Shown here: one piece after another, positions 99 to 18,045 of the stretch
Layout: every line of letters begins with the position of its first letter
How positions within the stretch are numbered: the stretch's first letter is position 1
The notes under the pieces: generated by a model
Told to the model about the DNA's origin: nothing
Databases searched by the model: none
The model's input: the letters and a program-made list of their open reading frames with translations, nothing else
DNA from: Promethearchaeati archaeon
GTDB taxonomy: Archaea > Asgardarchaeota > Heimdallarchaeia > Heimdallarchaeales > Heimdallarchaeaceae
DNA length: 58,267 bases
Assembly (NCBI GenBank): GCA_013166775.1
Contig: JABLTJ010000021.1
Span: 1-58,267 of the forward strand
Direction: 5' to 3'
Made by a program: the position numbers and the translations under genes

Positions 99-1611
<1,513 letters not shown>

Positions 1612-4984: not shown

Positions 4985-7900
4985 CCTACACTATGCATAC
5001 GCCATGTAGTGGATGACTTGGCTAGGGAGCCGATGAAGGGCGCGGTAAGCGGCGAAACGCTATGGGGAGACGCAGACAGTCTACGATCCATAGATTCCCG
5101 AATCGGATTTCCGGTTATGGCTTAATAAGCTGTAACAGCCAGAAATGGCGGGGAACGCAGGGAACCAAAACATTCAAGTACCTGCAGGAAAAGAAAGCAA
5201 TTGCGATTCCGGTAGTAACGGCGAGTAAAACCGGAAGAGATCAAACCGAATTCCCTTTTCGAAAGATTAGGGCAGATGTGGTGTTTTTGACTACAATATA
5301 GACCGTCAGTGTGAAGTCGAAAATCCCTGGAAAGGGATGCCGTAGAGGGTAATAGCCCCGTAGACGTAAGCACCCGGCTTAGTAGTATCAAGACTAGTGT
5401 GGCTTGGATGTGTCGCACAAAGTCGGGAGAACTAACTCCCAAATCTAAATACTCCCCTAGACCGATAGTGCACTAGTAACGTGAGTGAAAGTTGAAAAGT
5501 ATTCGAAGTCCGAGAGTGAAAAGTGCCTGAAACTACATGGTAACAGACGTGGATGGCTTGAAAGGGTAGAGTCTCGACGAAGGAACCCATCGCAAGGTGG
5601 TAGTACGAGTCGAGAGGACCAGAGTCATCCGTTCCGTCTCGAAACACGGGCCGAGGAGTTCAGGTTTGTGGCAAGCTTAAGCGAAAGCGGTAGCGTAGCG
5701 AAAGCAACCGGCGCGCAGCTTCGGCAAGGCGCGACGTCCGATAAGGGCGTGAAGTCACAGGTCTGAGACCCGAAAGCAGTTGATCTATCCCTGGCCAAGA
5801 TGAAGCGCTTCGAAAGGAGCGTGGAGGTCTGAAGGGGTATTGATATGCAATTCATTCCCATGAGTTGGGGATAGTGGCAAAAGACCAATCTAAACTGCTG
5901 ATAGCTGGTTCCCTCCGAAGTATCACCACAGGATAGCGCTGCTGGAGGTTGCATGTGAGGTAGAGCTACGGACGGAAGGTCCTGGGGAGTGAAATCCTCA
6001 CCCTTCCTTCCAACTCCGAACTTGCATGCGCCGTAGAAGGCGGCAGACGGGCGTGTATCCGCAAGGGATATGGCCGAAAGGGGAACAACCCTACAATGGG
6101 TTAAGGGCCCTAAATCCCGGTTAAATGTTAAACTGAATGGCGTCCAACGACTAAGACAATGAGGCGGTAAGCTTAGAGGCAGCTATCCGTTAAAAAAAGC
6201 GTAACAGCTTACTCATCGAGTTGTTGGGCCCAGAAAATGGACGGGGCTAAACCGGGTCCCGATACCCATTTGGACTCTAAAAGAGTCTCAGGTAGGAGGG
6301 CGATCGGGTTGGGCAGAAGCTGGGGAGTGATTCCCAGTGGACCGACCTGATTTGCAGATCTCGGTGGTAGTAGGAGCATAGTGAGGTGAGAATCCTCATC
6401 GCCGAAAGCCCAAGGGTTCCTTGGCACTGTTCGTCAGCCAAGGGTTAGTCGGTCCTAAGGTCGGCCTTAACACGAGCCGATCGAAAGGGAAACAGGTTCA
6501 TATTCCTGTACCACGCATATAGGTGTGGCAACACAAGCTTTGAGCTAACGCTGGTGGGTAGGTGGCCTAGGAGAATATCCTAGTTAAATGTAGAATTCTG
6601 GGGAGAACCGTTAAGGTGAGAACCAGACGAATGTATGAAGAGGCTGGCCATAGGTTGCTGGCTGCCATCAATCCCAACAGCCCGTGAAAAGGCAAAAAGA
6701 ACGATTATGCGTGTCCGTACCCAGAACCGACACAGGTGTGGCTAGCTTAGAAGGCTAAGGCGTGTTAGGGGAGCTCGGGTGAAGGAAATCGGCAAATTAG
6801 TCCCGTACCTTGGGTATAAGGGATGCCTGGAGAGGTGCAAGCCTCACCAGGTCGCAGTGACTAGGGGCACCCGACTGTTTAATAAAAACATAGCAAACTG
6901 CAAGGGCGAAAGCCTGAGTACAGTTTGTGAATCCTGGCCGGTGCCGGTGCTTGAAACCTGGGTTCAACCAGGCTAAGACCCGGTAAACGCCGGAGCTAAC
7001 TATGAGCTTCTTAAGGTAGGCAAATGCCTTGTCTGCTAATTACAGACGTCCATGAAGGGACCAACGAGGTGCCCACTGTCTCCACCCGAAGCCTACTGAA
7101 CCCACAGTCCAGCGAACAGTCTGGAACGCACCATCGGGAAGAGAAGACCCTGTGGAGCTTTACTGCTGTCAGGGGCTGTTGTATTGGTGTGCATGCATAG
7201 CATAGTCAGGAGATGCTGATCCTACATTCTCCGGGATGTAGGGGAGTCGAACTTGAAATACTGACCTTGTGCATTGGTACGACTTACCTCTTGCGAGGGG
7301 GACACCCCCTGCCTGGCAGTTTCACTGGGGCGGTAGCCTCTTGAAAAGATATCAAGAGGGCCCAATGCCGAGCTCAACCGGGACAGAAATCCGGTGTAGA
7401 GTGCAAGGGCAAAAGCTCGGTTGACTGTGAACTTAACAATATGGTTCGCAGATGTTAACGCAGGGCCTAGCGATCCTCCGTATTGTCCTTAGTAGACGAC
7501 GGAGGTGGCAGAAAAGTTACCCCAGGGGTAACTGCGCTTCGAAATAATCACGTAGAAGTGCTCTCAACTGGGTAACGCTTATATCTAATTTCCATCTTTT
7601 CAAAAAGGCAGAGTTGAAATAGCTCCTGTCTTCAAATTTCCGTTTGTGAGGAATTCAAGTTTTCGCCATATTGGCCAATAATAGACTTGAGCAGAAAGGA
7701 TCCTATATCTGTCTGAAATCCAACCATTATTAATTAATGGAAAATCCCGAATGAACATGATGGAGAGCCAATAAGCGTGAGGAAACCGATAGATCGAAGG
7801 ATTGGTAACTTGCCTGATTAACAGGTTGACAACTGATCCATAAGATCGATGTGCCTTCAGGCACAAGCGCAGCCCTGAACAGAGTTGTCGTGGGTAAGAG

Positions 7901-8365
7901 TTCACATCGACCTCACGGCTTGCTACCTCGATGTCGGCTCTTCCTAGCTTGGTGGTGATTCAGCCGCCAAGAGTGGGGTTGTTCGCCCATTAAAAGGGAA
8001 CGTGAGCTGGGTTTAGACCGTTGTGAGACAGGTCGGATTCTATCTGATGGTGCTGACGGGTGATTGAGAGTAAAGTCTCCACAGTACGAGAGGAACAGGC
8101 GGCTGGGGCCTCTGGTGTACCGGTTGTCCTTCCGGGCATTGCCGGGTAGCTAAGCCCTCGACGATAAGAGCGGAATGCATCTACGCTCGAAGCGTCTCTC
8201 GAAACGAGTCACCCATTCTGCAGCGATATAAGGGGACTGGCGACAGTAACCTTTGTTGTAGACGAGGGCGCGGAAAGAAGATCCGTTTGATAGAGTGGGG
8301 GTGTACGCGTCGAGCTTCGGCGAGATGTTTAGCCCACCACCACTAACTGCTCAAGCGTAGTTAGG
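4985..8365 (+). rRNA. rrl: 23S rRNA (archaeal), containing a 348-nt intron
   Basis: Conserved motifs GACCGATAGTG, GATAGCTGGTT, CTTAAGGTAG, CCTCGATGTCGGCT and sarcin-ricin AGTACGAGAGGAAC; helix 1 CCTACACTATGC/GCGTAGTTAGG. Ends are approximate. Confidence 0.98.
7531..7878 (+). other. 348-nt BHB-type intron in the 23S peptidyl-transferase loop (E. coli 2450/2451)
   Basis: GGGG-UA^A-CUGCGCUU ... AAGCGCAG-CCCU-GA^A. Removal gives CCAGGGGUAACAGAG. Confidence 0.85.
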
Positions 8366-8415
8366 CCAAATAGAAATCGGTTCGTCAGATTCTTGGAGAG
8401 TTCTTGACAGCTAAC

Positions 8416-8520: not shown

Positions 8521-11358
8521 ATGAGTAAAAAGAAAAGATATACAGGGAGTTATAAAAAAACTAATACTTCTACTAAACCGATTGTTAGAGTATTGAAGAA
8601 AATTACTCCCTATTTCTTTACAGCTTTAGTGGGTTTTATTTCTTTTTTATTTATATTTCCTGAAGTAACAAGCTTTATTCCTGTTGGCTTTTTTGCTTCA
8701 ATATCCTCTTTTAGTGAATCACTTGCCTTAAATCTAAAAGATACTTTGAGATTTTTATTTTATAACAAATATTTCTTAATTTTAGTTCTAGTTTTGATTC
8801 TATTATCACTTATAATCAAATTCTTACCATATTACCCCATATCAGATGATCAATTCTTTACACTCAAAAAATTATTATTACCTTTTTACCGAAAAATAAG
8901 TATTCTTGTAGTTTCATCATCAGTAACAACCACTTCTAATTCCTTTCCATTTAGTACACAAGAAAGCAAAATTCATCAATCCTTTATCAATTGCCTGTTT
9001 TTAAAATCAAGAAAACAACACATTGCACTCTACAAAAGTGGAGAAAATGTAATAATATTTTTTCCAGTCATGGCAAAAGGTTGGAAAAATAGCAAAGTGG
9101 AAAATCAGCTAAAAAAAGAAATCATCTTTGTTAGCAATTCAATTGATACTCACTATAAATGTAAGGTTAGAAATTTAACTAATGAGCAAGTTGCTATACT
9201 AATTGTCAATCTAGATAAAATGAAGATAAGAAATAAAATTGATCTTTCTTCCAAGAATATCGAGAACATACATTTGATTGATCAGATGTATAATATTCTA
9301 CAAAACGAACGGTTAAGTAATATTTGTTTAATCTTTAAAGCACACAATCTAAAGAAGAAAGAAGATAGTTTCTTCATAGACTTGTTGGTTCTAGCTGATG
9401 CGAAGATAGTTGAAGCTTTTGTTTCAGATGCTAGTGGGTTAGATATAAAGAGTGCTACAATGAGAGTAAGAAAACAGGATTTTTCAAAACTTGTTTTTTC
9501 CAACAAACGAAATCAACATTTAATAGCTTTAGAAAAATTATCTTCTTTTATGCATATTCCATATAATTACAAAGGTGGATTCTTGCCCTTAAAAGCAAGA
9601 GAAATGCAGGGAAATTCTGTTGATTTACTTAGTAATAGGGAAATGATTCTGATTGGTAAAGATGTTAATAATGAGAATTTAAATCAAGATATTACCATTA
9701 ATATCAAAGACATATTGTTAAATGTGGAAATATATGGAATGATAGGAAGGGGAAAAACTAAACTGGTTTCATCAATCCTTGGTCAACTTTTAGATAATAA
9801 TGTTAATTCTATCGTTTTTGATATTAAAGGAGAATATGCTAGAACATTTGTTGATGATTCAAGAGTAGAGATTTTTACAATCGGTCGTCCAAGACCTTTG
9901 TGTATCAATATATTTGAAACATTAGATGAAGATGATGTTCGAAATACTTTGTTAATTATAGAGGAAATGATGGTTTCTTCAAATCAAGATTTTTCACCAG
10001 CAATGAAGAATCTCTTCGAAAATGCACTATTTCTGACTCATAGATCGCAGAAACGCAATTTGAAGTCTTTTGTTGAAAATGTATTTAAAGCATCAAAAAA
10101 TTTACAATCTTATTCTAACGTTTCATATATTCAGCAAACCATTGATGCTGTTTTAAATAGACTTAATTTTATTTTTAACCCAATTAATTTTGAAATACTT
10201 GGTACTTCAAGAACCACCCTTGATTTATCATTACTTGATAGAGGAAAAAGTATCATTTTGGATTTAAGTCAATTTCAAAAGAGAGCTGCTAGACCATCAG
10301 ATATCTTCCTGATATGTAATTTAATATTGAAAATGCTTTATAGACACGCTTCAGCAAAAGAGATGACAAATAAACTTAGATATGCTGTCATTCTAGAAGA
10401 AGCAATAAACATTATTCCCAACTTTTATCGCTCTGAAAGTTCAGCATCACTTATTACCGCAGAAAATAACTTTCTGTTAGGAAGAAGCTTAGGTATCGGT
10501 CATATTACAATCTCACAATTGTGGGATAGTGTTAGTAACGTTGTACATGGAAATTCAGCAACAAAGATAGTTTTTCGTTCAAGTGAAAAAACTGAGCAAA
10601 TAGGAAAAGCTTTGAATCTTGAAGAAGATGAAACCTCCAAAATTCAAAGACTCCCAACACAACACTGTTTTCTTTTCTCCGAAGATGCAGAACTTGCCAT
10701 TCAGATTCGAACAATAGATTTAGTAAATGATCCAATAAGCTATTCAGAGTATCAAGCTAAGATGATAAAAGAACACGGTAGAAGTATCTTTCCGTTATTG
10801 TACAATAATTTCATAGATATGAGAACTGCATTATATCAGAGAAGTAACAAGCAAACATTAGGAAAATCAGCTAAGGATCCTAACACCAGAAATATCACAC
10901 CAATTCATAATAAATTGGAACATTTTATCCCAGAGGAGAAAAAGGTTGATTCAGAACAAAAAAACAGTGCTATTAATTCAGTGGATCAAGAAGTCTTAGA
11001 TATTAATACTTCCATAGATCTGATACCAGAAAACCTAATATGTGAGAGACTATGCCCTGAAAAAACAGACAACAGAGAGTGTTTGAAATATAAAATTGGA
11101 GCAAATATAGTAAAATCAACAATTTCGAATCAAAATTCTCATCAAGAGATTAGTTTCCTATTAAATAATGAAGATAAGCTGTCTTCTGAAGTCAAGGAAA
11201 TTGCAGAAAAACGCAATATGGAATTTAGCTCTTTTTTAGTTTTTTGTGTTGCAAGAAGTTTAGTAATGAATTTATCTTCTGAAAATCTTATAACTCCTGA
11301 GGAAGCATATAATTTTCTTAAGGAATTTATTCCAAAGAATCAAATTTCATTAAGTTGA
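8521..11358 (+). CDS. Membrane-anchored HerA/FtsK/VirB4-like ATPase (DUF87-type), 945 aa
   Basis: Two N-terminal TM segments; Walker A GMIGRGKT; IVFDIKGEY; Walker B VILEEA; GRSLGIGHITISQ. Confidence 0.8.
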   Translation: MSKKKRYTGSYKKTNTSTKPIVRVLKKITPYFFTALVGFISFLFIFPEVTSFIPVGFFASISSFSESLALNLKDTLRFLFYNKYFLILVLVLILLSLIIKFLPYYPISDDQFFTLKKLLLPFYRKISILVVSSSVTTTSNSFPFSTQESKIHQSFINCLFLKSRKQHIALYKSGENVIIFFPVMAKGWKNSKVENQLKKEIIFVSNSIDTHYKCKVRNLTNEQVAILIVNLDKMKIRNKIDLSSKNIENIHLIDQMYNILQNERLSNICLIFKAHNLKKKEDSFFIDLLVLADAKIVEAFVSDASGLDIKSATMRVRKQDFSKLVFSNKRNQHLIALEKLSSFMHIPYNYKGGFLPLKAREMQGNSVDLLSNREMILIGKDVNNENLNQDITINIKDILLNVEIYGMIGRGKTKLVSSILGQLLDNNVNSIVFDIKGEYARTFVDDSRVEIFTIGRPRPLCINIFETLDEDDVRNTLLIIEEMMVSSNQDFSPAMKNLFENALFLTHRSQKRNLKSFVENVFKASKNLQSYSNVSYIQQTIDAVLNRLNFIFNPINFEILGTSRTTLDLSLLDRGKSIILDLSQFQKRAARPSDIFLICNLILKMLYRHASAKEMTNKLRYAVILEEAINIIPNFYRSESSASLITAENNFLLGRSLGIGHITISQLWDSVSNVVHGNSATKIVFRSSEKTEQIGKALNLEEDETSKIQRLPTQHCFLFSEDAELAIQIRTIDLVNDPISYSEYQAKMIKEHGRSIFPLLYNNFIDMRTALYQRSNKQTLGKSAKDPNTRNITPIHNKLEHFIPEEKKVDSEQKNSAINSVDQEVLDINTSIDLIPENLICERLCPEKTDNRECLKYKIGANIVKSTISNQNSHQEISFLLNNEDKLSSEVKEIAEKRNMEFSSFLVFCVARSLVMNLSSENLITPEEAYNFLKEFIPKNQISLS

Positions 11359-13549: not shown

Positions 13550-13882
13550 TCATTCATCACAAGGTATAGTATTTTTGAGATAAACATTGAACGCATCAAC
13601 TAGATTATTACATTCTTCCAGGACAGGATAATCTTGGAAAGAAGACATACTGGTTTCTTTTTTAGCATCTGAACTAAGAGACGCAACTCTTGATCTTCTG
13701 ATATTTCCCCTACCATCGATTGATAAAATGAGTGTGTGGTCATCAGCATGCATTAATACAAAATTAAACAACTGACTGTCTTTTAGTTCTTCAATCTGTT
13801 TTTTTTCAATTTTGCATTCCACCATTCTTCCGCATTTATCACAGCTGAACGCTCTCACGATATATTTATCTTTGTTTTCCAT
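13550..13882 (-). CDS. Small putative Zn-binding protein (CDKC...HxxxH), last gene of the GTPase operon
   Basis: FSCDKCG and MHADDH; co-oriented, 22 bp from the GTPase gene. Confidence 0.7.
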   Translation of the reverse strand: MENKDKYIVRAFSCDKCGRMVECKIEKKQIEELKDSQLFNFVLMHADDHTLILSIDGRGNIRRSRVASLSSDAKKETSMSSFQDYPVLEECNNLVDAFNVYLKNTIPCDE

Positions 13883-13904
13883 TCCAATTCCACTGATTGT
13901 TTTA

Positions 13905-14501
13905 TTAGTTACCCGAATACTTTGAAACTAGTTCATCGGCTAAATTACTTTCTTTGTTGGTTATATGATCTACTATATACTCAAATGGTTCTGATACATT
14001 TACAGAATAAAGCCCACTAACTAGAAAGTGTTTTTTGATGTTGTAGTTTTTCATAAAATCATGAACATCTTCGATTGATACTTCAGCATTTTCTATATCT
14101 AGTTTATTTCCAACTAATATTTCAGGTATTGTTGGATAAAAGTGGTTTTCAAGATAGTTTCTTGTTAAGTCGACAAATTCATTTAGATAAACAAGGGTTT
14201 CGATATCAGTAACATCATATACATAAATTACTCCTTTTACCCCTCGAAGAAAGACATCTATCATGAATCTAAATTGCTTTTGACCTGCAAAATCCCAAAT
14301 TTGTAGTGTAACTGTTTTACCACAATACACCATTCTCTTCACTGTTATATCTACACCTTTTGTCATAGAAATTTGATTAAGATCAGAAATTTCACCAGAA
14401 TAACCTTTTGAAATTGTTGTTTTTCCTACAGAACCTAGTCCTAAAACTGCTATTTTGAGAATGTTTCCTTGTTTTGTGTTATGTGAGTATAGGGTGCTCA
14501 T
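13905..14501 (-). CDS. Ras/Rab-like small GTPase
   Basis: G1 GLGSVGKT, G2 Thr (MTKG), G3 WDFAGQ, G4 NKLD, G5 VSG; no C-terminal Cys. Confidence 0.93.
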   Translation of the reverse strand: MSTLYSHNTKQGNILKIAVLGLGSVGKTTISKGYSGEISDLNQISMTKGVDITVKRMVYCGKTVTLQIWDFAGQKQFRFMIDVFLRGVKGVIYVYDVTDIETLVYLNEFVDLTRNYLENHFYPTIPEILVGNKLDIENAEVSIEDVHDFMKNYNIKKHFLVSGLYSVNVSEPFEYIVDHITNKESNLADELVSKYSGN

Positions 14502-14525
14502 TATAAATCATATCCTAAAAAAGAT

Positions 14526-15869
14526 TTAAAACACCACATTTTTTGTGTCAATTGTGGGTTCTCCTGCAACAAATCCATGAATTGAAACAGCTGAATAAAT
14601 CGGTTTTTGATTGATAAGAGAGAATTCTCCTCCTGAATAAAGAGTGATAAAAGGAACATCCTCTCCTACTGCTTGTTCAATCAGCTTATTTTCTTTATCA
14701 ATTTTATCTCCTGCTATTAACAGTCTATTACTACAGTTTATGAAAATTCCAAATCGTATATCTGTCATACCATTTGTGAGATTGTTAGCACATTCAAGTG
14801 CGGATTTTTGAATTCCGGTTCCTGATTGTGTAAAGAAATCAGTTTTAATATTATTACTGCTTAAAGTTTTTTCTGGAATCGTTGCTATTACTCCATCCAA
14901 TATTGGGTGACACACAGATACAAAAGGAACATAATCTTCATACTCATTTTCTAATGCTGATAAATATAACAAAGAAGCATAGGATAACTTACCAAATGCT
15001 TCATCATACAAATCTCTAGAGATATCAATTAATTCCAAAAACGCTTCATTTGCTGGTTTTTTGTTTATTTTTTGCACGTATCCACTACTCTTTAAAAACT
15101 CTGTTAGAAAGAAATCTCTGCTATGTTGTGATTTATCAAATGTCCAATTATTGTTAAAACTAAGTTTATCGGATGAAAATACGGTTCCAACTAAAGCATT
15201 TTGGAAAACACTATCGCCGCTAAATTGATAACAATATTTCATGTCTAAATCTATTGTAGCCCCACCCAATGCATTTTTTATTCCACCTTCTACTAAAGTT
15301 CTCAATATAGTATCGGCAAATAAGGTTGAACCGTAACCGTTTTTCCCCATACTTCTATTAATCATCCTTCCAATAAGATTGAACATTTTTTTAAATTTCT
15401 TCGCGAAAAATGTATCCAGAACTTTTAGTTGCTCAAATGCATTAGTTTGATAAAAAGGTCCTGGTGTTAAGAAAAATCCCAGTTTTGATGATTTGGTTGT
15501 AGATTCATACGCTTTTCTTATTTTTTGAGCACCTTTTTTGGGATTTATGCGTACATTTGTGTAGTCAAAGGGAGGTTGAATCTGAACTTCATCACCTTTG
15601 AATCCCATAACTGAACAACCTTGTGTAGTTGGTAATCCATTAGATGTAGCAACTCCAGGAAAAATACCCCCAATTATGTTTTTTGTTCCACTTTCCTCAC
15701 AAATTTTTGCAAGAGCATTTTCGTAATCTCTCTTACTTTGGTAATTAGGTGTAAATCCAACAATAAGAAATTCGGGTGTGCCATTTATCTCACCAATTAC
15801 ATCTCTAATAATAGCATTTGTTGCTTGTTTAATTGATCTGTGACTTGTTGTTCCTGCTGTTATTTGCAT
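14526..15869 (-). CDS. FIST-domain sensory protein (FIST_N + FIST_C)
   Basis: IIGG..PG N-terminal motif, LGGAT, KINKKPA, C-terminal FINCSNRL and YSGGEF. Confidence 0.8.
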   Translation of the reverse strand: MQITAGTTSHRSIKQATNAIIRDVIGEINGTPEFLIVGFTPNYQSKRDYENALAKICEESGTKNIIGGIFPGVATSNGLPTTQGCSVMGFKGDEVQIQPPFDYTNVRINPKKGAQKIRKAYESTTKSSKLGFFLTPGPFYQTNAFEQLKVLDTFFAKKFKKMFNLIGRMINRSMGKNGYGSTLFADTILRTLVEGGIKNALGGATIDLDMKYCYQFSGDSVFQNALVGTVFSSDKLSFNNNWTFDKSQHSRDFFLTEFLKSSGYVQKINKKPANEAFLELIDISRDLYDEAFGKLSYASLLYLSALENEYEDYVPFVSVCHPILDGVIATIPEKTLSSNNIKTDFFTQSGTGIQKSALECANNLTNGMTDIRFGIFINCSNRLLIAGDKIDKENKLIEQAVGEDVPFITLYSGGEFSLINQKPIYSAVSIHGFVAGEPTIDTKNVVF

Positions 15870-15878
15870 AAAAAAACC

Positions 15879-16238
15879 TCACAAGTAGCTAGCAATGATT
15901 TGAGATTTTCGTTTTGCTTCAATAGACAATAAACTAAGATTCACATTCTGATTTGCCAATGTTGTAAGAATTGATACATTATTCACAACAAAAAACAAAA
16001 CACAAAAATCATTTAGTTCATAAGTCACTTTATTTAAGTTATTTGATCTCATTTCAAGTGAAACTTTTTCTACGTTAGCTTTACACCACTGGACTGTTCT
16101 CAGTAATTCCTGTGAATAGTTCTCATTAAAACATGATTCTACAACGTTTCCATCAATTCTGAACAATATTGAAGCTTCAACATCTTCTAAATATATGAGA
16201 TCTTCCAATTCAGAAGAAATTCCCTTGGTATAATTCAT
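15879..16238 (-). CDS. Roadblock/LC7 (MglB-like) protein
   Basis: 119 aa; VEASILFRIDGNVV; C-terminal helix NLSLLSIEAKR. Confidence 0.8.
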   Translation of the reverse strand: MNYTKGISSELEDLIYLEDVEASILFRIDGNVVESCFNENYSQELLRTVQWCKANVEKVSLEMRSNNLNKVTYELNDFCVLFFVVNNVSILTTLANQNVNLSLLSIEAKRKSQIIASYL

Positions 16239-17161
16239 CTCCTAACCTCTTGCAATATCTCAGGATCAGTTAAAACGTTTACAAGTTCAATATTCTCCTT
16301 TCCTTCTCTTCTTTTTCTTCCTCCAAGTAGGTTAGTTGCTATTTGAGCAATAATCTGTTTCTTTGGATCTTTATCTTTAGACATTTCCTTAATCTTCTTC
16401 TTCAATTCTAAGTACCTTACATCGTTAGTTTTAGAATCGGTGATTATCTCTGCAACTGAACTAGTATCTATAGATATACCTTGACCGAAAACAAATTCCA
16501 AAGGATAAATTCCTTCATGGTGGGCAGTTCTTCTTGATTTAATTACTTTACATGTTCTGTTGTATTTACCCCCCAATCCTAAATTCTGGATATGAATCAC
16601 GCTGTCTGATAAGTAGATCGGAACTCTTGTTTCAACAGCACCAATATCTGTTTGTCCAAATGCATTTGGTTCTTCAATTGTCTGCAATACTGTTCCTAGT
16701 GAGCTTAAGTGGTGATATATTTTTGTTAATACTTTTCTTTGATCTTTCTCCGAAGGAAATTCCCAGAGAATTGGTGTTAAAGGATCTAGTATGATTCTAG
16801 TGTGTTTTACGTTCTTATATTTGAGCTTCTGTGCTAAAGCAGGTAGTATATTGGTCATAAATTCAACAATTTTTTCGCTTTCAACAAGATGAATCAAATC
16901 GTTGTAATTTTTTGCAATCTCTTTTATTTTTATACCTAGTGATTCTGCTTCTGACATTAGCTTTGAAGGTGTTTCTTCGAAAGAAAGATACAATATATGA
17001 TCTCCTTCGAGCAATCCTTGATATACATAAGCTAAAGCAAATGTAGTTTTCCCCGTCCCACTGCTTCCTACTATTGAGTTAATTGAATTTTTAATTAATC
17101 CTCCTTGTAAGAGCACATCAAGACCTTCAATGCCAGATGATATTCTCTCTGCATGTGTCAT
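16235..17161 (-). CDS. Single-domain KaiC-like (RecA-fold) ATPase
   Basis: RISSGIEGLDVLLQGG, Walker A GSSGTGKT, YLSFEE, RIILD, IKSRRTAH. Confidence 0.9.
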   Translation of the reverse strand: MTHAERISSGIEGLDVLLQGGLIKNSINSIVGSSGTGKTTFALAYVYQGLLEGDHILYLSFEETPSKLMSEAESLGIKIKEIAKNYNDLIHLVESEKIVEFMTNILPALAQKLKYKNVKHTRIILDPLTPILWEFPSEKDQRKVLTKIYHHLSSLGTVLQTIEEPNAFGQTDIGAVETRVPIYLSDSVIHIQNLGLGGKYNRTCKVIKSRRTAHHEGIYPLEFVFGQGISIDTSSVAEIITDSKTNDVRYLELKKKIKEMSKDKDPKKQIIAQIATNLLGGRKRREGKENIELVNVLTDPEILQEVRR

Positions 17162-17286
17162 TTGAATCTATATTGATTCTCAAATAAGCTAAATAAACTC
17201 CACAATTTATTTTTTTGAATCTCTTTGAAAATAAATGTTAAGAGCAATATTTTATAAATAAAATATTATACAGACAATCGAATAAT

Positions 17287-18045
17287 ATGAGTTCCTTTCT
17301 AAAAAAAATAAAAGAGCTTTTCATATCAAAAGAAAAAATATTCAATAATCTGTTAATCGAAGAATTGGAAAACAAGGATTTCATTAACATAAGAAAACTA
17401 TCTTCAAAACTATCTGTTCAACAACGATATAAAATCACAAATAAACTAATATCAAATGGTAGTATAAGTGGAATTCTTTTACCTGAAACAACGTTTTTTT
17501 TCTCAATACAAAACAAAGAATTAACAGAAATTAAGGATCAGCTTAAAAGAAAAGGAAGCATAGATTCATCTTCTCTGAAAGAGAAATGGGGGGTTAAGAA
17601 CAAGTATCTAGAATTACTATTGATGCATTTTGAGAAGGGTATTCTAACACCCAAAACCTATTACACTATCAGATATCTTCATGAGCATATCTTATCTACA
17701 CTAAATAAAGAGGAAGAGTATGAAATCAAGCTGTTCAATGAAAAATTAAATGCTGACCTAGATGATATAATCAAGATTATACTAGATTTAATAGAAGAAG
17801 GATTACTCCTTGGTGTTTTGCAGAATGATGAAATATTTCTAAGCGCAACAAAATTTGAGGACCTAATTACTGAATATGCTGAAGAGAAATACAATCTAGC
17901 TGATGAGGTTGAATTCAATGAAATCTCTATCGATTTAAAAGTTTCACAAGATTCTATAGAGAAGTTTTTGGTTAATATTGTGGAAAAAATGCCTGGAATA
18001 TATGCTGTATATCCCTTAGAAAAAAAGATAAAATTCAAGAAATAA
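17287..18045 (+). CDS. Tandem winged-helix (PCI/UFL1/DDRGK-like) protein
   Basis: About four repeated WH-like units, e.g. KLISNGSISGIL and DLIEEGLLLGVL. Confidence 0.55.
   Translation: MSSFLKKIKELFISKEKIFNNLLIEELENKDFINIRKLSSKLSVQQRYKITNKLISNGSISGILLPETTFFFSIQNKELTEIKDQLKRKGSIDSSSLKEKWGVKNKYLELLLMHFEKGILTPKTYYTIRYLHEHILSTLNKEEEYEIKLFNEKLNADLDDIIKIILDLIEEGLLLGVLQNDEIFLSATKFEDLITEYAEEKYNLADEVEFNEISIDLKVSQDSIEKFLVNIVEKMPGIYAVYPLEKKIKFKK

What the first reader, a model, noticed from the sequence alone, without database searches (positions are those of the whole stretch)
13550..17161. Five-gene signalling operon: KaiC-like ATPase - Roadblock - FIST - Rab-like GTPase - Zn-finger protein
Seen: five co-oriented genes with a 4-bp overlap and gaps of 9, 24 and 22 bp. 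Known: Roadblock/MglB proteins regulate small GTPases (MglA; Ragulator/Rag), FIST domains are proposed small-ligand (amino acid/NO) sensors, and KaiC-like ATPases are proposed archaeal signalling hubs. Inference: a self-contained circuit in which a ligand sensor and a KaiC-like ATPase feed a Roadblock-controlled, eukaryote-like small GTPase, loosely parallel to nutrient sensing through Ragulator-Rag. I do not recall this exact combination being characterised.
Basis: partly seen in the sequence, partly recalled or inferred. Interest (0 to 1): 0.78.

Follow-up and report, generated by a model that had tools for sequence, protein, structure and literature searches.

The report
Conserved KaiC-Roadblock-FIST-GTPase operon, Heimdallarchaeaceae
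An Asgard archaeon of the family Heimdallarchaeaceae keeps five tightly packed genes together (a KaiC-type ATPase, a Roadblock protein, a FIST sensor-type protein, a Rab-like GTPase and a small Cys/His protein), which names likely partners for one of its roughly 30 otherwise unassignable small GTPases, although how the proteins work together is untested.

Summary
Five minus-strand ORFs lie at 13550-17161 with a 4-bp overlap and gaps of 9, 24 and 22 bp.

**Domain calls**
- KaiC, FIST and the Ras/Rab-like GTPase are supported by Pfam.
- The 119-aa protein has no hit in the local Pfam copy but folds confidently as Roadblock.
- The "Zn finger" is an orphan protein, here called P5, with invariant CxxC...HxxxH and no known fold.

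**Conservation**
- The block keeps the same order in all five genera of Heimdallarchaeaceae and in a second, GC-richer lineage, while the flanking genes differ.
- The older core is KaiC-Roadblock-FIST, which recurs in at least five further Asgard lineages.
- Accessory genes vary. A second Heimdallarchaeia family has a different GTPase clade at the 5' end and an MFS transporter at the 3' end.

**Reading**
- "Roadblock-controlled GTPase" and the Ragulator-Rag parallel remain inference, because the GTPase is not part of the conserved core.
- The closest analogue in logic is the actinobacterial conservon.

I found no paper describing this combination. This scan has noted the same module before on other genomes.

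The parts
16235..17161 (-). Single-domain KaiC-like (RecA-fold) ATPase, 308 aa. It has a ~230-aa core plus a ~75-aa charged C-terminal tail ending in the invariant motif QEV.
   Evidence: PF06745 at 2e-34. The best PDB matches are the KaiC CI domains, 1.7e-37. Walker A GSSGTGKT, the FEE glutamates, Walker B RIILD and KSRxT are invariant across the family. It is the single best match to its own profile in the genome.
15879..16238 (-). Roadblock/LC7-fold protein, 119 aa. Its start overlaps the KaiC stop by 4 bp.
   Evidence: No hit in the local Pfam copy. The profile matches the Thorarchaeota Roadblock 7f8m at E 0.0038. AlphaFold2 gives pLDDT 93 and an alpha-beta-beta-alpha-beta-beta-beta-alpha topology. 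The Foldseek top hits are Asgard Roadblocks 7f8m and 9jue, MglC 7ct3, MglB 3t1r/1j3w and LAMTOR, with TM 0.72-0.82. Precomputed Pfam labels it PF27410 'AF0774', and JGI names orthologues Roadblock/LC7/MglB family.
14526..15869 (-). Stand-alone FIST_N + FIST_C protein, 447 aa, predicted soluble.
   Evidence: PF08495 at 1.6e-7 and PF10442 at 3.5e-5. Orthologues carry both domains in precomputed Pfam. It is single copy in the genome. No transmembrane-like segment was found.
13905..14501 (-). Rab-like small GTPase of the Ras superfamily, 198 aa, with no C-terminal cysteine motif.
   Evidence: PF00071 at 2.4e-28. The best PDB matches are Ypt1, Rab43, Rab18, Rab7 and Rab35, from 4e-21. G1 GLGSVGKT, switch-I T47, G3 WDFAGQ and G4 NKxD are invariant. 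It is one of about 30 Ras-family genes in the genome.
13550..13882 (-). P5: a small Cys/His protein of an Asgard-only orphan family, 110 aa. A beta-rich N-terminal domain is followed by a variable linker and a C-terminal helix.
   Evidence: No Pfam or NCBIfam hit. C14, C17, H45 and H49 are invariant across five genera. The AlphaFold2 model has pLDDT 71, with five strands and one helix. No PDB fold match was found. A homologue sits in the same position in a second lineage (hhalign 99.5%), and one sits upstream of KaiC in a third (94.6%).
17162..17286 (.). A 125-bp AT-rich intergenic region shared with the divergent gene at 17287-18045. It is the only place for a promoter outside coding sequence.
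   Evidence: Sequence read. The internal gaps of 9-24 bp leave no room for separate intergenic promoters. Promoter function was not tested.

Best explanation
SHOWN: The five genes form one conserved, tightly packed gene block, very probably an operon, of a Heimdallarchaeaceae archaeon. The block is built on an older three-gene core: a single-domain KaiC-like ATPase, a Roadblock-fold protein and a stand-alone FIST_N/FIST_C protein. That core recurs in several Asgard lineages. Heimdallarchaeaceae and one further lineage carry a dedicated Rab-like GTPase and the small Cys/His protein P5 behind the core. All five proteins are predicted to be soluble.

INFERRED (about one chance in three for the full chain): The FIST protein is the input, acting like bacterial NosP, a stand-alone FIST sensor that modulates the kinase encoded next to it. 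It sets the ATPase or autophosphorylation state of the KaiC-like protein. The Roadblock protein, probably a dimer, couples that state to the nucleotide state of the Rab-like GTPase, acting as a GAP or GEF platform in the manner of MglB, CvnB or MfpD. GTPase-GTP, perhaps together with the presumably zinc-binding P5, is the output. The overall logic and gene order parallel the actinobacterial conservon (kinase-like protein, roadblock, third protein, small GTPase).
For: - **Layout:**
- **Domain and fold assignments:**
- **Within the genus:** same order in 18 of 18 untruncated loci, with FIST identity falling to 59%.
- **Across the family:** same order in all four other genera, with FIST 46-53% identical, gaps of 55 bp or less, and the KaiC/Roadblock overlap mostly kept.
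- **Flanks:** the downstream flank (ribosomal L1/L10/P1 genes here) is not shared with other genera.
- **Second lineage:** three independent contigs at 48% GC carry the same five genes in the same order. The GTPase scores 163 bits, against about 100 for the best paralogues, and P5 matches at hhalign 99.5%.
- **The triad elsewhere:** KaiC-Roadblock-FIST occurs in at least five further lineages. In four genomes from two of them the cluster KaiC is the best match to the family profile.
- **Copy number:** FIST, P5, this KaiC and this Roadblock are each single copy in the genome.
- **Stand-alone FIST next to a kinase is a known arrangement:** PMC8846402, and a distant FIST lying between a response regulator and a histidine kinase.
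- **Conservon composition and roles:** abstracts of PMC13343842, PMC13621833, PMC11343762 and PMC13015309.
Against: - The GTPase is not part of the conserved core. Several lineages have KaiC-Roadblock-FIST with no adjacent GTPase.
- In the second Heimdallarchaeia family the GTPase sits at the 5' end. It forms a separate clade and is not the best match to this GTPase's profile (70 bits against about 100).
- Roadblock and FIST also co-occur without KaiC or a GTPase, next to gelsolin-like and LuxE/LuxC genes. The Roadblock protein's partner may therefore be FIST or KaiC rather than the GTPase.
- No ligand, cofactor, phosphorylation site or catalytic GAP/GEF feature can be read from the sequences.
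- The zinc site of P5 is inferred from four invariant residues only, with a spacing unlike classical C2H2.
- Co-transcription was not tested.
Confidence: 0.5

Rival explanations
1. The functional unit is only the KaiC-Roadblock-FIST triad. Here the Roadblock protein is an adaptor between FIST and KaiC, not a GTPase regulator. The GTPase, P5, MFS transporter, thioredoxin and longin-like genes are interchangeable, lineage-specific outputs or merely co-expressed passengers.
For: The triad always appears in the order KaiC, Roadblock, FIST, with overlapping or near-overlapping ORFs, across at least seven lineages, while the fourth and fifth genes vary. The GTPases come from two clades at two positions. 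Roadblock-FIST linkage persists without a GTPase. P5-like genes sit either after the GTPase or before KaiC.
Against: Acquisition of a small GTPase twice, or its retention at two positions, next to the same triad argues that a GTPase is a preferred partner. Roadblock-fold proteins with known function mostly act on small GTPases (MglB, LAMTOR, CvnB/MfpD; established knowledge). Within Heimdallarchaeaceae the GTPase is as strictly retained as the triad.
Confidence: 0.3
2. This is a conservon-like G-protein system in which FIST is not a ligand sensor. It would play the part of CvnC/MfpC, the exchange factor or GTPase-binding subunit, with Roadblock as GAP and KaiC replacing the histidine-kinase-like CvnA.
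For: The gene order ATP-binding protein, roadblock, third protein, GTPase matches the core composition of conservons given in PMC13343842 and PMC13621833. MfpC is reported as a GEF (PMC11343762). No ligand-binding residues can be identified in this FIST protein.
Against: None of the five proteins hits DUF742 or a histidine-kinase domain. FIST proteins with experimental data act as sensors of NO or heme (PMC8846402). FIST occurs in the triad without a GTPase in several lineages, which a dedicated GEF would not explain.
Confidence: 0.1
3. An archaeal homologue or forerunner of the eukaryotic Ragulator-Rag nutrient-sensing machinery. This takes the first reader's parallel as descent rather than analogy.
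For: A Roadblock fold and a small GTPase lie in one operon, and LAMTOR chains are among the structural matches of the Roadblock protein. An MFS transporter is attached to the triad in two lineages.
Against: The GTPase is Rab-like: its best matches are Ypt1 and Rab, the Gtr1_RagA hit is far weaker than Ras, and it has no C-terminal roadblock domain. There is a single Roadblock gene rather than a multi-subunit scaffold. The closest structural matches are Asgard Roadblocks, MglC and MglB, ahead of LAMTOR. KaiC and FIST have no counterpart in Ragulator-Rag.
Confidence: 0.04
4. The genes are neighbours only by inherited synteny and have no functional link.
For: Most of the genomes that show the full five-gene order belong to one family. 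Co-transcription and protein contacts are untested.
Against: The block survives while its flanks change between genera. It recurs in a lineage with 48% GC and different neighbours. Its triad recurs in other families and another class, with a permuted accessory gene order. ORFs overlap or are separated by 55 bp or less.
Confidence: 0.03

Closest known systems
Actinobacterial conservons / G protein systems (CvnA-D; the mycobacterial mfp operon)
   Same: [quoted passage not shown] The roadblock protein is a likely GAP and the third protein a likely GEF (abstracts of PMC13343842, PMC13621833, PMC11343762 and PMC13015309).
   Different: Here the ATP-binding protein is a RecA-fold KaiC-like ATPase rather than a histidine-kinase-like protein, and the third protein is FIST rather than DUF742. 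The GTPase is Rab-like with a DxxGQ G3 motif. The host is an archaeon. Only the Roadblock and GTPase superfamilies are shared, so this is an analogy of logic, not membership.
MglA/MglB of Myxococcus xanthus and Thermus thermophilus
   Same: A Roadblock-fold protein is encoded next to a small Ras-superfamily GTPase. MglB and MglC are among the best structural matches of the 119-aa protein (TM about 0.8).
   Different: The GTPase here keeps the canonical Asp of DxxGQ and is Rab-like rather than MglA-like. Two further conserved partners, KaiC and FIST, lie between or around the pair, and the two genes are not adjacent.
NosP-NahK: a stand-alone FIST-FIST_C sensor acting on a neighbouring kinase in bacteria
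   Same: A stand-alone FIST_N + FIST_C protein is encoded beside an ATP-using signalling enzyme (PMC8846402). The classical arrangement was also seen for a distant relative, lying between a response regulator and a histidine kinase.
   Different: The neighbouring enzyme is a KaiC-like ATPase, not a histidine kinase. Nothing here shows haem or NO binding, and sequence similarity to bacterial FIST proteins is remote.
Archaeal KaiC-like ATPases proposed as signal-transduction hubs (Makarova, Galperin and Koonin, mBio 2017; ArlH/FlaH)
   Same: A single-domain KaiC-like ATPase with intact Walker A/B and catalytic glutamates is embedded in a conserved neighbourhood with putative input and output proteins.
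   Different: The 2017 paper could not be read here. Whether it lists a KaiC-Roadblock-FIST neighbourhood is therefore unknown. Its content is cited from my own knowledge only.
Asgard operon of a LAMTOR1-like Roadblock protein, a Rab-like GTPase and a DENN-domain protein (Liu et al., preprint 10.1101/2020.10.19.343400)
   Same: It is another conserved Asgard neighbourhood that pairs a Roadblock-superfamily protein with a Rab-like GTPase.
   Different: That text mentions no KaiC or FIST, and there is no DENN domain here. It is a different operon.
Eukaryotic Ragulator-Rag
   Same: Roadblock-fold proteins regulate small GTPases in a nutrient-signalling context. LAMTOR chains appear among the fold matches.
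   Different: There is no Rag-type GTPase, no C-terminal roadblock domain on the GTPase and no multi-subunit Roadblock scaffold. KaiC and FIST have no equivalents.

Membership tests
KaiC family (Pfam PF06745) | Profile match above the curated cut-off | tested here: met
   119.4 bits against a cut-off of 26.6. The best PDB matches are KaiC CI domains.
KaiC family (Pfam PF06745) | Walker A, Walker B and the catalytic glutamate pair | tested here: met
   GSSGTGKT, RIILD and FEE are invariant in 12 sequences from five genera and align to KaiC CI.
KaiC family (Pfam PF06745) | Duplicated CI+CII architecture of clock KaiC; hexamer formation; autophosphorylation | tested here: not met
   Only one ATPase domain is present in 308 aa, so this is not a clock-type KaiC. 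Hexamer formation and autophosphorylation cannot be tested with these tools.
Roadblock/LC7 (Pfam PF03259; MglB-like) | Sequence profile match | tested here: inconclusive
   P0002 has no PF03259 hit even at E 10. The orthologue in the second lineage hits at 9.7e-7, 28.9 bits, above the cut-off of 23. The family profile matches PDB 7f8m at 0.0038. Precomputed Pfam gives PF27410 for P0002, and additionally PF03259 for a few orthologues.
Roadblock/LC7 (Pfam PF03259; MglB-like) | Alpha-beta-beta-alpha-beta-beta-beta fold | tested here: met
   The AlphaFold2 model has pLDDT 93. 125 Foldseek matches have E of 0.001 or less, and the listed ones are all Roadblock, MglB, MglC or LAMTOR chains. This rests on a predicted structure only.
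Roadblock/LC7 (Pfam PF03259; MglB-like) | Dimerisation and GAP or GEF action on a small GTPase | not testable with these tools
   Needs biochemistry.
FIST (Pfam PF08495 + PF10442) | FIST_N and FIST_C profile matches | tested here: met
   FIST_N scores 31.9 bits against a cut-off of 23.2. FIST_C scores 24.4 bits against 28.5, so it falls below the cut-off for this sequence, but most orthologues carry both domains in precomputed Pfam.
FIST (Pfam PF08495 + PF10442) | Ligand or cofactor binding (NO or haem, as in NosP and CdpA) | not testable with these tools
   No solved structure is detectable by sequence, and no defined binding motif is available.
Rab family of small GTPases | G1-G5 motifs and a catalytic Gln | tested here: met
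   GLGSVGKT, T47, WDFAGQ and NKxD are invariant, and G5 reads VSG.
Rab family of small GTPases | Closest similarity to Rab; Rab-family motifs | tested here: inconclusive
   The best PDB matches are Ypt1, Rab43, Rab18, Rab7 and Rab35. Motifs resembling RabF2 (LQIW) and RabF5 (YVYDVT) are present and the others only partly so; the motif definitions are recalled from my own knowledge. No phylogeny with eukaryotic Rabs was made.
Rab family of small GTPases | C-terminal cysteine prenylation motif | tested here: not met
   The sequence ends in YSGN and no C-terminal Cys occurs in any orthologue.
Rag/Gtr GTPases (Ragulator-Rag) | Rag-type G domain fused to a C-terminal roadblock domain | tested here: not met
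   The protein is 198 aa with a G domain only. Gtr1_RagA scores 9.6e-6 against Ras at 2.4e-28.
MglA-type GTPase | Non-canonical G3 (Thr in place of the Asp of DxxG), as recalled for MglA | tested here: not met
   G3 is WDFAGQ, with the canonical Asp. The MglA feature is cited from my own knowledge.
Actinobacterial conservon (CvnA-D) | Histidine-kinase-like CvnA and DUF742 CvnC alongside roadblock and GTPase | tested here: not met
   None of the five proteins hits a histidine-kinase or DUF742 profile. Only the roadblock and GTPase components are shared.
Classical C2H2 zinc finger | C-x2-4-C-x12-H-x3-5-H spacing and a beta-beta-alpha fold | tested here: not met
   The spacing is C-x2-C-x27-H-x3-H. 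No zinc-finger Pfam hit was found. The model is a five-stranded beta domain. Metal binding itself is untested.

The most novel reading that the evidence does not exclude
KaiC-Roadblock-FIST would be a previously undescribed signal-transduction system of Asgard archaea. In it, an ATP-driven KaiC-like ring, set by a cytosolic FIST sensor, gates a dedicated Rab-like GTPase through a Roadblock adaptor. That would be an archaeal example of Roadblock-based control of a Rab-like switch that could be reconstituted from five defined proteins, with P5 as a new zinc-binding effector fold.
Probability: 0.25. Interest if true: 0.8.

Novelty: new variant of a known kind. Interest (0 to 1): 0.6.

Why it matters
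Asgard genomes carry dozens of eukaryote-like small GTPases and many Roadblock and longin proteins. Published work states that these are generally not in operons, so regulators cannot be matched to GTPases from genome layout (PMC10933270; preprint 10.1101/2020.10.19.343400).

This block is an exception. It nominates four specific partners for one Rab-like GTPase, in genomes that include the closed Heimdallarchaeum genomes and the original AB_125 bin. All five proteins are small and predicted soluble, so the hypothesis can be tested by ordinary reconstitution.

The block also links three signalling parts that are not known to work together: a KaiC-like ATPase, a Roadblock protein and a FIST protein.

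Tried and rejected
- **Complex prediction.** A job with two Roadblock copies, GTP, Mg and the GTPase gave no verdict (score 0.00, controls not run). It counts neither for nor against binding.
- **Fold of P5.** Foldseek against the PDB found nothing at E of 0.001 or less. VIA-align wide gave a best Z of 3.5. The Atlas nearest clusters are all unnamed Asgard proteins. A beta-beta-alpha-beta-beta-beta-alpha order reminiscent of longin was considered, but nothing supports it.
- **P5 and EnvZ.** The P5 profile weakly matches the EnvZ DHp domain (E 0.04-0.18). The match does not fall on the phospho-accepting histidine and the model is beta-rich, so I treat it as chance.
- **Pfam and NCBIfam for Roadblock and P5.** No hits.
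- **P5 outside the family by word-indexed search.** Only Heimdallarchaeaceae hypothetical proteins were found.
- **FIST in solved structures.** None by sequence.
- **More distant FIST relatives.** Their contexts are unrelated: LC_3, P0128, P0125, P0108 and P0160 on short contigs.
- **N-terminal extensions of the Roadblock ORFs in the second family.** These look like start-codon calling artefacts and were not used.
- **G077.** This genome, from another family, carries a near-identical block on a 6.8-kb contig. I read it as a probable binning error and did not count it.
- **Literature.** No paper in the library holds 'FIST domain' together with Asgard. None describes KaiC with roadblock and a GTPase in Asgard. 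'AF0774' gives nothing relevant. Makarova et al. 2017 is not held.
- **Euryarchaeal KaiC-AF0774-AF0772 triad.**

Full report
**1. The observation**

One search lists five minus-strand ORFs:

| Coordinates | Length | Protein id |
|---|---|---|
| 16235-17161 | 308 aa | P0001 |
| 15879-16238 | 119 aa | P0002 |
| 14526-15869 | 447 aa | P0003 |
| 13905-14501 | 198 aa | P0004 |
| 13550-13882 | 110 aa | P0005 |

The window is archaeal, with about 31% GC outside the rRNA genes. It carries a 16S gene at 99-1611 on the minus strand and a 23S gene at 4985-8366 on the plus strand. Names attached to orthologues place the organism in Candidatus Heimdallarchaeaceae. This is the family of Heimdallarchaeota AB_125, Heimdallarchaeum aukensis and H. 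endolithica.

**2. What each gene is**

*P0001, the KaiC-like ATPase.*
- It matches PF06745 at 2e-34, and its best solved relatives are KaiC CI domains.
- Walker A (GSSGTGKT), the FEE glutamates, Walker B (RIILD) and KSRxT are invariant across five genera.
- A charged tail of about 75 aa follows the core and ends in an invariant QEV motif.

*P0002, the Roadblock protein.*
- It has no hit in the local Pfam copy. PF03259 searched over the whole genome does not pick it up either, although it finds eight other Roadblock genes.
- Its family profile matches the Thorarchaeota Roadblock 7f8m over the full length at E 0.0038.
- AlphaFold2 gives pLDDT 93 and an alpha-beta-beta-alpha-beta-beta-beta-alpha topology.
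- The Foldseek top hits are Asgard Roadblocks, MglC, MglB and LAMTOR chains at TM 0.72-0.82.
- Precomputed Pfam 38 labels it PF27410 'AF0774', JGI calls orthologues Roadblock/LC7/MglB family, and the orthologue in a second lineage passes PF03259.
- The Roadblock call is therefore right, but it rests on a predicted fold.

*P0003, the FIST protein.*
- It is a stand-alone FIST_N/FIST_C protein (orthologues).

*P0004, the GTPase.*
- It belongs to the Ras superfamily, with all G motifs and the catalytic Gln invariant.
- It is closest to Ypt1 and Rab proteins among solved structures.
- It has no C-terminal cysteine.
- The genome holds about 30 such genes.

*P0005, here called P5.*
- It has no family assignment.
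- Across five genera only C14, C17, H45 and H49 are invariant among its Cys and His residues; C23 is not conserved.
- The model (pLDDT 71) shows five strands, a disordered linker and a terminal helix. It matches no known fold.
- 'Zn finger' is thus a reasonable guess at a metal site, not a family assignment.

None of the five proteins has a transmembrane-like segment.

**3. Conservation within the family**

- The FIST gene has orthologues in 21 of 24 other genomes of the genus.
- In 18 of 18 untruncated loci all five genes are present in the same order. Identities fall to 59% for FIST and 62% for P5.
- The P5 profile finds the gene in 25 of 30 family genomes and in all five genera.
- Six loci from the four other genera show the same five genes in the same order. 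Identities are 63-74% for KaiC, 54-68% for Roadblock, 46-53% for FIST, 56-69% for the GTPase and 46-56% for P5. Gaps are 55 bp or less, and the KaiC/Roadblock overlap is mostly kept.
- The flanks do not follow. The ribosomal L1/L10/P1 genes downstream in the window are not near the block in other genera.
- Only the divergent 252-aa gene upstream is retained. It is present in four of the five loci that include that flank, and in one of them it is inverted.

**4. Beyond the family**

A FIST profile run over 399 Asgard genomes, a library-wide profile search and neighbourhood look-ups gave the following picture.

(a) A lineage at 48% GC, seen on three independent contigs including GCA_030666915.1, has KaiC, Roadblock, FIST, GTPase and a 148-aa P5 homologue in the same order. 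The P5 match is hhalign 99.5%. The GTPase scores 163 bits on the family profile, against about 100 for the best paralogues anywhere.

(b) A second Heimdallarchaeia family, genus g14, has a FIST homologue in 22 of 22 genomes. Its records are named variously Heimdallarchaeota, Hodarchaeota or Promethearchaeota archaeon.
- 16 of 22 loci read GTPase, KaiC, Roadblock, FIST, MFS transporter.
- Two more have the last four genes only, one has Roadblock-FIST-MFS, and three are cut by contig ends.

(c) Further arrangements:

| Lineage | Arrangement |
|---|---|
| G396, from another class | KaiC-Roadblock-FIST-MFS |
| A relative of G396 | KaiC-Roadblock-FIST followed by a weak longin-like gene |
| A third lineage | KaiC-Roadblock-FIST |
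| A fourth lineage | P5-like, KaiC, Roadblock, FIST, thioredoxin |

(d) In two other Asgard families FIST lies behind Roadblock genes and a gelsolin-like gene, and in front of LuxE and LuxC. There is no KaiC.

(e) Still more distant FIST proteins sit in unrelated contexts. One is the classical bacterial-type position between a response regulator and a histidine kinase.

**5. Orthology of the parts**

- In four genomes from lineages (b) and (c), the KaiC gene inside the cluster is the best match to the Heimdallarchaeaceae KaiC profile, at 109-243 bits against 58-68 for the next hit.
- The GTPase of lineage (b) is not the best match to this GTPase's profile, at about 70 bits against about 100.
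- In a quick maximum-likelihood tree, the Heimdallarchaeaceae and lineage (a) GTPases form one group (support 91) and the lineage (b) GTPases form another (support 99).
- The two groups are not joined, although the deep branches are weak.
- The simplest reading is an old KaiC-Roadblock-FIST core to which a small GTPase was attached at two positions, probably twice.
- In the window's genome, FIST, P5, this KaiC and this Roadblock are each single copy.

**6. How it most likely works**

*Shown.* This is a conserved, compact block of five soluble proteins. Internal gaps of 9-24 bp leave no intergenic room for promoters. The only non-coding stretch available for one is the 125-bp AT-rich region upstream of KaiC.

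*Inferred from the families.*
- Stand-alone FIST_N/FIST_C proteins with experimental data, such as NosP, act as sensors that modulate a neighbouring kinase (PMC8846402).
- KaiC-like ATPases have been proposed as archaeal signalling hubs (Makarova et al. 2017, from my own knowledge; the paper is not held here).
- Roadblock dimers act on small GTPases, as in MglB, LAMTOR, CvnB and MfpD (for the actinobacterial cases).

I therefore propose that FIST sets the state of the KaiC-like ATPase. The Roadblock protein would couple that state to the Rab-like GTPase, and the GTPase, with P5, would be the output. I give the full chain about one chance in three. That the five genes form one functional unit I hold at about 0.9.

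The main rival is that the triad is the working unit and the Roadblock protein serves KaiC or FIST, with the GTPase as an interchangeable output. The data in sections 4 and 5 fit this rival well.

**7. Comparison with what is known**

- The best analogue in logic and gene order is the actinobacterial conservon: a histidine-kinase-like CvnA, roadblock CvnB, DUF742 CvnC and GTPase CvnD. This lead came from earlier notes of this scan, and I checked it against the abstracts. Membership fails, because there is no histidine-kinase or DUF742 domain.
- MglA/MglB shares the Roadblock-GTPase pairing, but the GTPase here is not of the MglA type.
- Ragulator-Rag is a remote analogy only.
- Liu et al. describe a different Asgard operon (LAMTOR1-like Roadblock, Rab-like GTPase, DENN) and say most such genes are not in conserved neighbourhoods.
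- Tran et al. say that the small GTPase genes of the cultured Asgard strain MK-D1 (Prometheoarchaeum syntrophicum) are generally not in operons with Roadblock genes.
- I found no paper that describes KaiC-Roadblock-FIST with or without a GTPase.

**8. Earlier notes of this scan**

The same module has been noted at least twelve times in ten or more other genomes. Most are the GTPase-KaiC-Roadblock-FIST-MFS form, and one is the five-gene Heimdallarchaeia form. My own tests agree with those notes on the core triad and on the later addition of the GTPase. A claimed euryarchaeal KaiC-AF0774-AF0772 triad could not be tested here beyond seeing the PF27410 label on the Roadblock genes.

**9. Verdict**

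This is a real, conserved signalling operon and a new combination of known parts. It is apparently undescribed in the literature I could search, and it can be tested by reconstitution. The mechanism is not established, and the eukaryote-like nutrient-sensing reading is not supported as homology.

Noticed in passing
G000 contig C2:16422-17821 (locus L110: 4396-4947 and 5091-5912, minus strand): A second pairing in the same genome. A 273-aa KaiC/PAXNEB-like ATPase lies directly upstream of a 183-aa Rab-like GTPase. A 108-aa ORF with no family comes before the pair, and pyruvate:ferredoxin oxidoreductase genes follow it.
   Followed up: partly
G000 contig C72:10683-11556, plus strand (locus L111): A canonical Roadblock gene (PF03259, 73.7 bits) lies about 100 bp upstream of a divergent small GTPase on a long tree branch. 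This is a possible MglB/MglA-type pair.
   Followed up: no
L078 3982-9634 and L090 4363-10856 (other Asgard families): FIST sits in a different conserved cluster. One or two Roadblock genes, a 274-338-aa protein with a weak Roadblock match and a gelsolin-repeat protein come before FIST. LuxE-type acyl-protein synthetase and LuxC-type acyl-CoA reductase follow it.
   Followed up: partly
window 17287-18045, plus strand: A 252-aa protein with no Pfam hit, transcribed divergently from KaiC, is retained next to the block in four of the five loci from other genera that include that flank (34-35% identity). In one of them it is co-directional.
   Followed up: partly
L076 5353-5838 (minus strand) and L115 7001-7474 (plus strand): Weak longin-like proteins (Fuz_longin_1 at 1.4e-4; Longin at 0.015) sit beside the KaiC-Roadblock-FIST triad in two related lineages.
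   Followed up: no
G077 contig C96 (locus L091; same record as L128, JAUWKS010000107.1): A 6.8-kb contig carries a near-identical copy of the block, with FIST at 779 bits. It is binned in a genome of another family, probably by a binning error.
   Followed up: partly
window 99-1611 (minus strand) and 4985-8366 (plus strand): The 16S and 23S rRNA genes are not in one operon. They point away from each other, and protein-coding ORFs lie between them.
   Followed up: no
window 8521-11358, plus strand: A 945-aa HerA/DUF87-type ATPase gene lies between the 23S rRNA gene and the ribosomal protein L1/L10/P1 genes.
   Followed up: no
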